Assembly (NCBI RefSeq): GCF_013122565.1
Contig: NZ_CP053258.1
Length of the DNA: 64,000 bases
DNA from: Escherichia coli
GTDB taxonomy: Bacteria; Pseudomonadota; Gammaproteobacteria; Enterobacterales; Enterobacteriaceae
Strand: one strand, 5' to 3'
The first letter of the stretch is position 1. Every line of letters begins with the position of its first letter. Made by a program: the position numbers and the translations under genes. Under the pieces are notes generated by a model. The model was not told where the DNA came from. It saw nothing but the letters and a program-made list of their open reading frames with translations, and did no database searches. This document shows positions 1,908-2,172 of the stretch, piece after piece.

Positions 1908-2172
1908 TGTGCCGGATGCGATGCTGGCGCACCTTATCCGGCCTACGGGGTGCTCAACTTGTTGATGTTGTTGTGTTTTGTACCTGATGCCGGATGCGAT
2001 GCTGGCGCATCTTATCCGGCCTACGGGGTGTTTAATTTGTTGATGTTGTTGTGTTTTGTACCTGATGCCGGATGCGATGCTGGCGCATCTTATCCGGCCT
2101 ACGGGGTGTTTAATTTGTTGATGTTGTTGTGTTTTGTAGGCCGGATAAGGCGTTTACGCCGCATCCGGCACC
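1908..2172. repeat. BIME/REP array: three tandem copies of an ~80-bp unit plus a terminal REP
   Basis: Unit gccggatgcgatgctggcgcatcttatccggcctacggggtg...ttgatgttgttgtgttttgtacctgat repeated three times; closes with gtaggccggataaggcgtttacgccgcatccggca (canonical REP). Confidence 0.85.

What the first reader, a model, noticed from the sequence alone, without database searches (positions are those of the whole stretch)
1908..2172. Tandem BIME arrays produce spurious repeat-derived ORFs
The triple-unit BIME at 1908–2172 and the double-unit BIME at 30646–30836 are the largest repeats in the window. They account for the internally repetitive track ORFs 1950..2204, 30640..30942 and 30740..31153. These arrays sit at operon ends and are potential recombination or deletion hot spots; REPs also flank the higB remnant and the DUF805 locus.
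Basis: seen in the sequence. Interest (0 to 1): 0.15.

Follow-up and report, generated by a model that had tools for sequence, protein, structure and literature searches.

The report
Copy-variable REP/BIME repeat arrays
These are two intergenic clusters of the well-known E. coli REP hairpin repeats (BIMEs); their unit number differs between strains and they throw up meaningless open reading frames, which is real but ordinary, already-described biology.

Summary
At 1910-2170, between convergent cyuA and yhaL, three 78-bp direct units (a Z2-type REP plus a long linker) are closed by one inverted Y REP. At 30648-30831, between the ygjK stop and the fadH start, two 100-bp units of alternating Z2 and Y REPs form a textbook BIME-2. 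One of these units passes Rfam's naRNA4 threshold. These are the largest repeats in the window.

Array 1 is not a canonical tandem BIME. By published definitions it is an "atypical" BIME: Z2 REPs, an L-like linker with an IHF-like core, direct orientation.

Both arrays vary in copy number. At cyuA/yhaL, 5,426 complete E. coli genomes carry a solo hybrid REP (about 20%), one unit (about 54%), two (23.7%) or three (4-6 genomes, with at least three independent alleles). E. albertii has five. At ygjK/fadH the alleles run from zero to at least three units.

The three ORFs are by-products. They are absent or frame-shifted in other alleles, show no codon-position bias, have no Pfam family and are never annotated by PGAP.

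REPs lie near the higB remnant and the DUF805 gene, but the higB deletion junction is not in a REP. Low interest; already-known kind.

The parts
579..1889 (+). cyuA (L-cysteine desulfidase), last gene of cyuPA. Its stop codon lies 20 nt (1890-1909) before the first REP.
   Evidence: ORF list; RefSeq annotation of orthologous loci
1910..1987 (+). Array 1, unit 1 (78 bp). Z2-type REP in iREP orientation at 1910-1946, ending in CTAC, with a weakened inner stem (CACC variant, -16.8 kcal/mol). Linker 1947-1982, then junction CCTGA 1983-1987.
1988..2065 (+). Array 1, unit 2 (78 bp). Z2-type iREP 1988-2024 (-21.5 kcal/mol), linker 2025-2060, CCTGA 2061-2065.
2066..2135 (+). Array 1, unit 3. Z2-type iREP 2066-2102 plus linker 2103-2135, running straight into the closing Y REP.
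2136..2170 (+). Closing Y-type REP with its 5' GTAG (GTAGGCCGGATAAGGCGTTTACGCCGCATCCGGCA), inverted relative to the three Z2 REPs. On the - strand it begins 7-8 nt after the yhaL stop codon.
   Evidence: It aligns to the Y half of Rfam naRNA4. Fold -20.9 and -22.3 kcal/mol on the two strands.
1955..1966 (-). IHF-like core ATCAACAAGTTG in linker 1 (matches ATCAANNNNTTR).
   Evidence: The same core occurs at 2033-2044 and 2111-2122.
2033..2044 (-). IHF-like core ATCAACAAATTA in linker 2.
2111..2122 (-). IHF-like core ATCAACAAATTA in linker 3.
1950..2204 (+). Spurious 84-aa ORF generated by the 78-bp (26-codon) repeat. It overlaps the 3' end of yhaL on the opposite strand.
2178..2348 (-). yhaL, the small gene downstream of yhaK and convergent with cyuA. 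RefSeq annotates the 54-aa product from the internal ATG.
30648..30684 (+). Array 2, Z2 REP 1 (iREP orientation; tail CTGG instead of CTAC).
30697..30731 (+). Array 2, Y REP 1 with 5' GTAG, separated from Z2 REP 1 by a 12-nt short linker (30685-30696).
30748..30784 (+). Array 2, Z2 REP 2, separated from Y REP 1 by a 16-nt head-to-head linker (30732-30747).
30797..30831 (+). Array 2, Y REP 2. On the - strand it begins about 12 nt after the ygjK stop codon.
30700..30781 (+). Y-l-Z2 unit that passes the Rfam gathering score for naRNA4 (RF02564): 70.4 bits against 59.5.
30640..30942 (+). Spurious 100-aa ORF starting in array 2 and running antisense into ygjK.
30740..31153 (+). Spurious 137-aa ORF. 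It has the same start context one 100-bp unit later, so it is in a different frame, and it runs antisense into ygjK.
30843..33194 (-). ygjK (glycoside hydrolase). Array 2 lies in its 3' flank.
28499..30517 (-). fadH. Array 2 lies about 130 bp upstream of its start codon.

Best explanation
Both features are members of the E. coli REP/BIME repeat family, lying in the spacers after genes.

Array 2 is a canonical BIME-2: two tandem 100-bp units of alternating Z2 and Y REPs with short linkers.

Array 1 is an atypical BIME. A 78-bp module (a Z2-type REP plus a roughly 35-nt linker that is a diverged relative of the BIME-1 L motif and carries an IHF-like core) is repeated three times head to tail and closed by one inverted Y REP.

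Shown:
- The arrays are locus-specific variable-number tandem repeats.
- The module grew in place. Its linker occurs nowhere else in E. coli genomes.
- The inter-unit junction GTACCTGA is the ancestral left flank of the REP, still visible as the left flank in E. albertii and in divergent Escherichia.

Inferred:
- The first duplication used the short GTA or GTTTTGTA homology that brackets the module.
- Later gains and losses arise by replication slippage or unequal homologous exchange between the 78-bp or 100-bp units.
- Complete loss to a solo hybrid REP arises by deletion between the GCCGGAT repeats of the two inverted REPs.
- Because CCTGA is absent from modern one-unit E. coli alleles, those alleles are most simply contraction products of an older multi-unit array.

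Function, inferred from what is established for REPs in general and not tested here:
- The stable hairpins act as 3' end stabilisers or attenuators for the cyuPA, yhaKL and ygjK transcripts.
- The Y REPs 7-8 nt after the yhaL stop and about 12 nt after the ygjK stop are within the 15-nt range reported to reduce translation.
- The linkers may bind IHF.
- BIME-2 units may bind gyrase and HU.

The three ORFs are accidental products of stop-free repeat frames.
For: Anatomy.

REP typing: in the Rfam naRNA4 alignments the three direct REPs of array 1 align full-length to the Z2 half, with a compensatory C-G to U-A change. The closing REP aligns to the Y half. Array 2 gives a full Y-l-Z2 match at 70.4 bits against a 59.5-bit threshold.

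Definitions of BIME-1, BIME-2 and atypical BIMEs, and the statement that tandem copy number at a locus varies among strains: PMC3333891 and PMC1187871.

Locus specificity: the unit junction is found in 1290 of 5426 genomes, 1296 places in total, at most 2 per genome and none on plasmids. The linker is found at most 3 times per genome and none on plasmids.

Allele series: solo REP, 1, 2 and 3 units. There are three different three-unit alleles and two different two-unit alleles, so change is recurrent. Several solo alleles carry the Y-REP variant of different BIME alleles.

Outgroups: the E. albertii type strain has five 78-bp units plus a Y REP at the same locus. GTACCTG(A/G) or TGACCTGA is the left flank of the REP in E69, E1V33, SCPM-O-B-8794 and E. 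albertii. No outgroup has the solo form.

Array 2 alleles of 0, 1, 2 and 3 units; up to 5 junction copies in one genome.

Hairpins: -17 to -22 kcal/mol each. The whole spacer folds with z = -4.9 on the + strand and -9.6 on the - strand. There is no canonical intrinsic terminator in the spacer.

IHF-like cores: 3 of the window's 12 matches lie in the three linkers, against 5.1 expected window-wide.

ORFs:
- No ORF of 30 aa or more in the array-1 reading frame in the K-12/O157 one-unit and solo alleles (elppa9 keeps a 32-aa one); the C-terminus changes frame with a 1-nt indel.
- Variable columns fall 5/8/7 on codon positions 1/2/3, and one frame per strand is stop-free by composition alone.
- No Pfam family.
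- PGAP annotates nothing there.

The 15-nt rule: Liang et al. 2015, as cited in PMC12306157.
Against: - Nothing contradicts the identity of the elements.
- The mechanism of copy change is inferred from allele structures only. RecA-dependent exchange, slippage and TnpA(REP)-mediated strand transfer would leave similar products. The junction TACC|TGAT is a 7-of-8 match to a published TnpA(REP) cleavage site (TGCC|TGAT).
- The linker does not reach any score for Rfam ES036, which does hit the L linker of the canonical BIME-1 at 5831-5873. Calling it L-like rests on about 69% identity, similar length and the same position.
- IHF binding, RNA stabilisation and translational effects were not and cannot be tested here.
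- The common K-12-type linker has a mismatch in the IHF-like core.
Confidence: 0.9

Rival explanations
1. Copy-number change and the original build-up of array 1 are catalysed by the REP-associated tyrosine transposase (TnpA-REP/RAYT), which cleaves at C|T sites beside REPs and joins strands. On this view passive slippage or unequal crossing-over is not the cause.
For: [quoted passage not shown] Every unit boundary in array 1 reads TACC|TGAT and every Z2 tail reads GGCC|TACG.
Against: The junction is fully explained as the ancestral left flank joined at a GTA microhomology. The three-unit alleles look like in-register exchanges between existing units, with crossover points at different places, as expected for homology-driven events. 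The module is confined to one locus. No in vivo RAYT-mediated amplification is documented in the papers read.
Confidence: 0.15
2. Array 1 is a selected functional module: a multi-site IHF-binding or nucleoid-organising array, or a copy-number-dependent regulator of the convergent cyuPA and yhaKL transcripts. It has been kept at this locus since before E. coli and E. albertii diverged.
For: The module, its exact 78-bp period and the ATCAANNNNTTR core are shared by E. coli, E. albertii and divergent Escherichia. BIME-1 L linkers bind IHF and REP325 BIME-2 RNA acts with HU (PMC3333891; PMC4550694).
Against: About 20% of E. coli genomes have deleted the module entirely and about 54% keep one unit. 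The commonest linker allele has a mismatch in the core. The linker is the most variable part of the unit, with 14 of 36 columns variable against 6 of 37 in the REP, and is no better conserved than the flanks. IS1397 interrupts the element in one assembly.
Confidence: 0.07
3. One or more of the repeat-derived ORFs (1950..2204, 30640..30942, 30740..31153) encodes a real small protein.
For: The ORFs are open, 84-137 aa long, and start at GTG. The 78-bp period keeps the array-1 frame open at any copy number.
Against: There is no ORF of 30 aa or more in this frame in K-12, O157 or solo-REP alleles, and the C-terminus changes frame between alleles. There is no third-position excess, 5/8/7. No Pfam family matches. 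PGAP never calls them. The array-2 ORFs shift frame with each 100-bp unit and run antisense through ygjK.
Confidence: 0.02
4. The three-unit state is an assembly artefact of a repetitive region.
For: Tandem repeats can be mis-assembled, and only 4-6 of 5426 complete genomes show three units.
Against: Units 1 and 2 differ at four positions in the window, so they are not a simple collapse or expansion. Independent complete genomes carry three units with different internal sequences. E. albertii carries five. An array of about 260 bp is shorter than a modern sequencing read.
Confidence: 0.02

Closest known systems
BIME-2 (for example REP325 between yjdM and yjdN, source of naRNA1-6)
   Same: Array 2 has alternating Y and Z2 REPs, short linkers, tandem units and strain-variable unit number. 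Its central Y-l-Z2 unit passes the Rfam naRNA4 gathering score (PMC4550694).
   Different: It has two units here against six in REP325, and the unit is 100 bp rather than 77 bp plus spacer. The model-matching orientation is the + strand, which is antisense to both neighbouring genes, so transcription of a naRNA-like species is unproven. Array 1 does not contain a full Y-l-Z2 unit (best 41.5 bits).
BIME-1 / RIB / RIP elements (z1 REP, L linker with IHF site, y REP; single copy)
   Same: The last unit of array 1 plus the Y REP has the BIME-1 layout: two REPs tail to tail across a roughly 35-nt linker. That linker ends in TTTTGTAGGCC and carries an IHF-like core in the same position and orientation as the canonical L of the window's own BIME-1 at 5808-5908.
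   Different: The non-Y REP is the long Z2 type (33-nt core), not the short z1 type (26-nt core at 5810-5835). The linker does not match Rfam ES036, which recognises the canonical L. The half-element is tandemly repeated, whereas BIME-1 is defined as single-copy.
[quoted passage not shown]
   Same: Array 1 fits the published description: a Z2 plus L-like plus Y combination, several copies, well-conserved units within the locus, and copy number variable among strains (PMC3333891).
   Different: The REPs within the repeated part are all in the same orientation instead of alternating, because only the Z2-plus-linker half was amplified.
IS1397 target sites (REP loops)
   Same: In assembly GCA_025439935.1 an IS annotated by PGAP as IS1397 family sits exactly in the loop of the Y REP of this BIME. 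This matches the published specificity (PMC1525189).
   Different: The window itself carries no IS at either array.

Membership tests
REP / palindromic unit (E. coli type) | 30-40-nt imperfect palindrome with a conserved GTAG (CTAC on the other strand) at the foot and a mismatch in the stem | tested here: met
   All four REPs of array 1 carry CTAC or GTAG and fold with the internal mismatch at -16.8 to -22.3 kcal/mol. Array 2's Y REPs carry GTAG; its Z2 REPs have CTGG or CAGG instead of CTAC.
REP / palindromic unit (E. coli type) | Extragenic, high copy number in the genome | tested here: met
   Both arrays are intergenic. The 1301-bp query hits a median of 26 places per E. coli genome through its REPs. 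At least eight other REP loci occur in the window.
BIME-2 | Composed of Z2 and Y REPs in alternating orientation | tested here: met
   Array 2 reads Z2(+), Y(-), Z2(+), Y(-) and gives a full-length match to the Y-l-Z2 covariance model. Array 1 does not meet this: it has three Z2 in direct orientation and one Y.
BIME-2 | Short linkers and tandem multi-copy organisation with strain-variable number | tested here: met
   Array 2 has linkers of 12 and 16 nt. Alleles of 0, 1, 2 and 3 units were seen, and up to five junction copies occur in one genome.
BIME-1 (RIB/RIP) | One z1 and one Y REP | tested here: not met
   Array 1's non-Y REPs align to the Z2 half of naRNA4 over its full length. They have a 33-nt core, against the 26-nt z1 core of the window's canonical BIME-1.
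BIME-1 (RIB/RIP) | Conserved long L linker carrying an IHF site | tested here: inconclusive
   The linker has similar length and ends and about 69% identity to the canonical L. It carries an ATCAANNNNTTR core in each unit. It gives no Rfam ES036 match even at E<=10, whereas the canonical L at 5831-5873 passes the threshold. IHF binding is not testable here.
BIME-1 (RIB/RIP) | Single copy at a locus; present-or-absent polymorphism | tested here: not met
   One to three units occur in E. coli and five in E. albertii.
Atypical BIME | Chimeric combination of Y, z1, Z2, L, S and other motifs; multi-copy; copy number variable between strains | tested here: met
   Array 1 combines Z2, an L-like linker and Y. 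It has 78-bp tandem units, with 2 units in 23.7% of genomes and 3 units in 4-6 of 5426.
naRNA4 (Rfam RF02564) | Sequence and structure match at or above the gathering score | tested here: met
   30700-30781 (+) scores 70.4 bits against 59.5. Array 1 scores at most 41.5 bits and does not meet this.
naRNA4 (Rfam RF02564) | Transcribed RNA that binds HU and condenses DNA | not testable with these tools
   No expression or binding data are available. The matching strand is antisense to ygjK and fadH.

The most novel reading that the evidence does not exclude
The 78-bp module (Z2 REP plus a linker bearing an IHF-like site) is a conserved, functional, copy-number-tunable element. On this reading it has been kept between cyuA and yhaL since before the split of E. 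coli and E. albertii, and its unit number (0 to 5) sets IHF occupancy or 3' end processing, and thereby the expression of the convergent cyuPA and yhaKL transcripts.
Probability: 0.05. Interest if true: 0.4.

Novelty: already known. Interest (0 to 1): 0.12.

Why it matters
The practical value is for annotation and typing, not new biology.

- ORFs of this kind should be masked as REP-derived.
- The cyuA-yhaL spacer (0.5 to 5 units of 78 bp) and the ygjK-fadH spacer (0 to at least 3 units of 100 bp) are clean, locus-specific VNTRs. They could serve as strain markers and as natural substrates for measuring slippage, unequal exchange or RAYT activity.
- The locus illustrates, in one place, all the known ways in which BIMEs generate intergenic polymorphism: expansion, contraction, deletion to a hybrid REP, IS1397 insertion, and a gene-replacement breakpoint.
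- It adds the observation that an atypical BIME array can persist at an orthologous site across Escherichia species.

Tried and rejected
1. I first read array 1 as a BIME-1 with z1 REPs. I rejected this after alignment to the Rfam Y-l-Z2 model showed the REPs are Z2-type.
2. I looked for the array-1 linker elsewhere in E. coli genomes as a dispersed motif. It was found only at this locus, and there was no ES036 match.
3. I tried to explain the junction CCTGA as new sequence or as a remnant of a deleted Y REP or l linker. Outgroup genomes settled it as the ancestral left flank.
4. I tested whether REPs sit at the higB deletion breakpoint. They do not. The yhaI loss is ambiguous: K-12 has a REP-like hairpin about 20 nt from one breakpoint.
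5. An exact census of the solo-REP allele with a 50-nt junction query was not clean, because the shared flanks gave 90%-identity hits in most genomes. I report 883 genomes at 99% or above and the 8/39 sample estimate instead.
6. The junction count for array 2 under-counts units, because K-12's second junction differs in sequence. It is therefore used only as a lower bound.
7. The original BIME papers (PMC333889, PMC413762) and the supplements of PMC3333891 are not held. Motif definitions therefore come from later papers and from the Rfam model.
8. Literature searches for this specific locus, or for BIMEs used as MLVA markers, returned nothing relevant.
9. No canonical intrinsic terminator was found in the cyuA-yhaL spacer.

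Full report
**Context.** The window is E. coli chromosome, collinear with K-12 MG1655 from about 3,257,229 down to 3,197,926 in reverse orientation, at 96-98.6% identity. It runs from cyuP through cyuA, yhaL, yhaK and yhaJ, on to higA, fadH and ygjK, and ends in the glnE region.

**Observation.** Tandem Repeats Finder reports 1910-2138 (period 78, 2.9 copies, 97% matches, score 430) and 30648-30832 (period 100, 1.9 copies, 95%, score 342). These are the two top-scoring tandem repeats. They also give the longest direct-repeat families in the window, 86 nt x3 and 98 nt x2. A strict REP pattern gives 3 matches against 0.04 expected, and a fuzzy scan places all eight REPs. The ORFs 1950..2204, 30640..30942 and 30740..31153 exist as stated. 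Array 1 lies between the convergent stops of cyuA (1889) and yhaL (2178). Array 2 lies between the ygjK stop (30843) and the fadH start (30517).

**Anatomy of array 1.**
- There are three direct REPs on the + strand (1910-1946, 1988-2024, 2066-2102), each ending in CTAC.
- Each is followed by a linker of about 35 nt (GGGGTG..TTGTTGATGTTGTTGTGTTTTGTA).
- Between units lies the pentamer CCTGA.
- A single inverted REP with a 5' GTAG (2136-2170) closes the array.
- Against the Rfam naRNA4 model, which is a Y-l-Z2 unit of REP325 (PMC4550694), the closing REP matches the Y half. The three direct REPs match the Z2 half over its full length, with a compensatory C-G to U-A change. No full unit is present (best 41.5 bits against a 59.5 threshold).
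- The linker resembles the L linker of the window's own canonical BIME-1 at 5808-5908. It has the same length class and the same TTTTGTAGGCC end, and is about 69% identical. It is not recognised by Rfam ES036, which does hit the canonical L at 5831-5873.
- Each linker carries ATCAANNNNTTR on the - strand. These are 3 of the window's 12 matches, against 5.1 expected window-wide. They are copies of one another, so they count as one observation.
- Published definitions: BIME-1 is z1 + L + y in single copy; BIME-2 is z2/y in tandem with short linkers; atypical BIMEs are multi-copy chimeras (PMC3333891; PMC1187871). By these, array 1 is an atypical BIME. It is unusual only in that the amplified half keeps all its REPs in one orientation.

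**Anatomy of array 2.** The order is Z2(+), a 12-nt linker, Y(-), a 16-nt linker, Z2(+), a 12-nt linker, Y(-). The central Y-l-Z2 unit (30700-30781) scores 70.4 bits for naRNA4, above the gathering score of 59.5. This is a canonical BIME-2.

**Strain comparison, array 1.** The collection holds 5,426 complete E. coli genomes.
- The unit-to-unit junction occurs in 1,290 genomes, 1,296 places in all, at most two per genome and never on a plasmid. So 23.7% have two units and at most six genomes have three.
- Four three-unit records were seen directly by span. In one record with two junction hits (S40) the spacer holds only two units.
- An evenly spaced sample of the ranking gives 10/39 two-unit, 21/39 one-unit (K-12, O157) and 8/39 with a 60-bp spacer holding a single REP.
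- The linker is found only at this locus.
- Unit-by-unit comparison shows three different three-unit alleles: the window (A-B-B), O111:H8 7-16 37A (A-A*-K), and WS3294A/96_1414B (A-A-K). It also shows two different two-unit alleles (A-K and A-B). Expansion has therefore happened repeatedly, with different crossover points.
- The solo allele reads ..TCGTGCCGGAT|AAGGCG.., that is, the head of the Z2 REP joined to the body of the Y REP at the shared GCCGGAT. It lacks GTAG. Solo alleles occur with different Y-loop and flank variants that match different BIME alleles, which suggests recurrent deletion.

**Outgroups.** A degenerate DNA pattern for the CyuA C-terminus retrieved the orthologous locus from other GTDB species representatives.
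- The E. albertii type strain has five units of exactly 78 bp plus a Y REP. Units 1 and 3 are alike and units 2 and 4 are alike, so a 156-bp block was duplicated.
- Escherichia sp. MOD1-EC7003 and E69 have one unit. E1V33 and SCPM-O-B-8794 have decayed versions. None has the solo form. The BIME is therefore ancestral and the solo REP derived.
- In E69, E1V33 and SCPM-O-B-8794 the REP is preceded by GTACCTG(A/G), and in E. albertii by TGACCTGA. This is the sequence of the inter-unit junction.
- The junction is therefore the ancestral left flank joined to the linker end at the GTA (GTTTTGTA in SCPM-O-B-8794) homology.
- Modern E. coli one-unit alleles lack CCTGA altogether, so a two-unit allele cannot be made from them by simple duplication. 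My inference is that the multi-unit state is old and the one-unit alleles are contractions.

**Strain comparison, array 2.** Alleles with no BIME (a non-REP hairpin in its place), one, two (the window; several genomes are 100% identical over 801 bp) and three units (K-12) were read directly. Up to five junction copies occur in one genome, which I did not inspect. In strain CFSAN018748, ygjK is replaced by another gene, and the breakpoint falls inside the first Z2 REP.

**REPs and other rearrangements.** The window and K-12 differ structurally at nine places.
- Five are REP/BIME loci: both arrays, a BIME-1 at 5785-5938 that K-12 lacks, and indels inside the aer/nfeR and bacA/cca BIMEs.
- The higB deletion (322 bp, junction 27964-27967), the 5.4-kb fimbrial island and the sstT/alx spacer are not at REPs.
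- The loss of yhaI is ambiguous.
- In assembly GCA_025439935.1, IS1397 sits in the loop of the Y REP of the cyuA/yhaL BIME, as expected from its published specificity (PMC1525189).

**ORFs.**
- The 78-bp unit is 26 codons, and one frame on each strand has no stop codon, so any copy number yields an ORF.
- K-12, O157 and solo-REP alleles have no ORF of 30 aa or more in that frame; the one-unit elppa9 allele keeps a 32-aa one. A 1-nt indel changes the C-terminus between alleles.
- Variable columns among ten unit variants fall 5/8/7 on codon positions 1/2/3.
- There is no Pfam match above noise.
- PGAP annotates no CDS in either spacer in any genome inspected.
- The two array-2 ORFs are the same start context 100 bp apart, so they are in different frames, and both run antisense into ygjK.
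- All three ORFs are spurious.

**Likely function (inferred).**
- Each REP is a hairpin of -17 to -22 kcal/mol. The whole spacer folds far better than shuffles, with z = -4.9 and -9.6 on the two strands. There is no hairpin-plus-U-tract terminator.
- From established REP biology (reviewed in PMC12306157; PMC3333891; PMC6379681) the expected roles are protection of the 3' ends of upstream mRNAs, partial attenuation, IHF binding for L-type linkers, and gyrase/HU binding for BIME-2.
- The Y REP starts 7-8 nt after the yhaL stop and about 12 nt after the ygjK stop. Both are within the 15-nt range in which REPs were reported to lower translation. The first REP is 20 nt from the cyuA stop, outside that range.
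- None of this depends obviously on unit number, and about 20% of strains do without the module.

**Verdict.** This is a correct, low-interest finding. Both elements belong to known kinds (BIME-2 and atypical BIME) and show known behaviour. The only modestly new details are the exact architecture and origin of the 78-bp module, its rarity at three units in E. coli, and its persistence as a five-unit array in E. albertii.

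Noticed in passing
window 5760-5965: A canonical BIME-1 (z1 REP, L linker, Y REP plus about 30 nt of conserved flank, 5808-5938) is present here but absent from K-12. It is bracketed by two copies of the yqjG/yqjF terminator hairpin (AAAACGAGGAGCGTTTCTCCTCGTTTT at 5760-5786 and AAACGAGGAGCTTCCTCCTCGTTTTTT at 5939-5965), of which K-12 has one. This looks like a roughly 25-bp target duplication. The L linker (5831-5873, - strand) passes the Rfam threshold for sRNA ES036.
   Followed up: partly
window 27964-28454: higB is reduced to its last 78 bp or so by a 322-bp deletion that also removes its promoter region. higA (28039-28454) is intact, leaving an orphan antitoxin. The junction is about 95 bp from the nearest REP.
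   Followed up: yes
window 4068-4490: Only one DUF805 gene (yhaH-like, 4101-4469, with the C-terminus changed from LEP to LEQE) is present where K-12 and O111 have two (yhaI and yhaH). yhaI and the spacer are replaced by a short non-REP hairpin. K-12 has a REP-like hairpin about 20 nt from one breakpoint.
   Followed up: partly
window 10302-15761: A 5.4-kb insertion between exuR and exuT, relative to K-12, carries four + strand ORFs of 233, 175, 900 and 364 aa. It is about 78% identical to the CS1-type chaperone/usher fimbrial operon annotated at the same place in E. coli O111:H8.
   Followed up: partly
window 22539-22977: The sstT/alx spacer holds a GC-rich segment of about 330 bp. K-12 has a different, shorter repeat there, with G-rich GGGGAGAGGGTTAGGGTGAGGGG-type arms. 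I did not identify it.
   Followed up: no
window 27782-27817: The Y-type REP after rlmG has become a perfect palindrome (TGCCAGATAAGGCGTAAACGCCTTATCTGGC). Relative to K-12 it has lost the stem mismatch that TnpA(REP) needs for binding, and it shows a compensatory G-to-A / C-to-T pair.
   Followed up: partly
L015 (E. albertii NBRC 107761), reverse strand, just after cyuA: Five tandem 78-bp units of the same Z2-REP-plus-linker module, plus a Y REP, lie at the orthologous cyuA/yhaL spacer. Unit types alternate, which implies duplication of a 156-bp block.
   Followed up: yes
L026 4390-5860 (GCA_025439935.1): An IS1397-family element is inserted exactly in the loop of the Y REP of the cyuA/yhaL BIME (GGCGTTT | IS | GTTTACGCC), with a 3-4-bp target duplication.
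   Followed up: yes
L010 1240-1422 (E. coli CFSAN018748): ygjK is replaced by an unrelated hypothetical gene. Similarity to other strains ends inside the first Z2 REP of the ygjK/fadH BIME-2.
   Followed up: partly
window 44558-44632 and 58725-58790: The aer/nfeR and bacA/cca spacers hold partly deleted or rearranged BIMEs that differ from K-12 by indels lying wholly within REP sequence. The REP at 44560-44592 is the closest relative in the window of array 1's REPs.
   Followed up: partly
window 28461-28485: A REP-like head-to-head palindrome (GCGCCGGATGCGTTGCATCCGGCGC) lies between the convergent higA and fadH stops. It may be a REP remnant acting as a bidirectional terminator hairpin.
   Followed up: no
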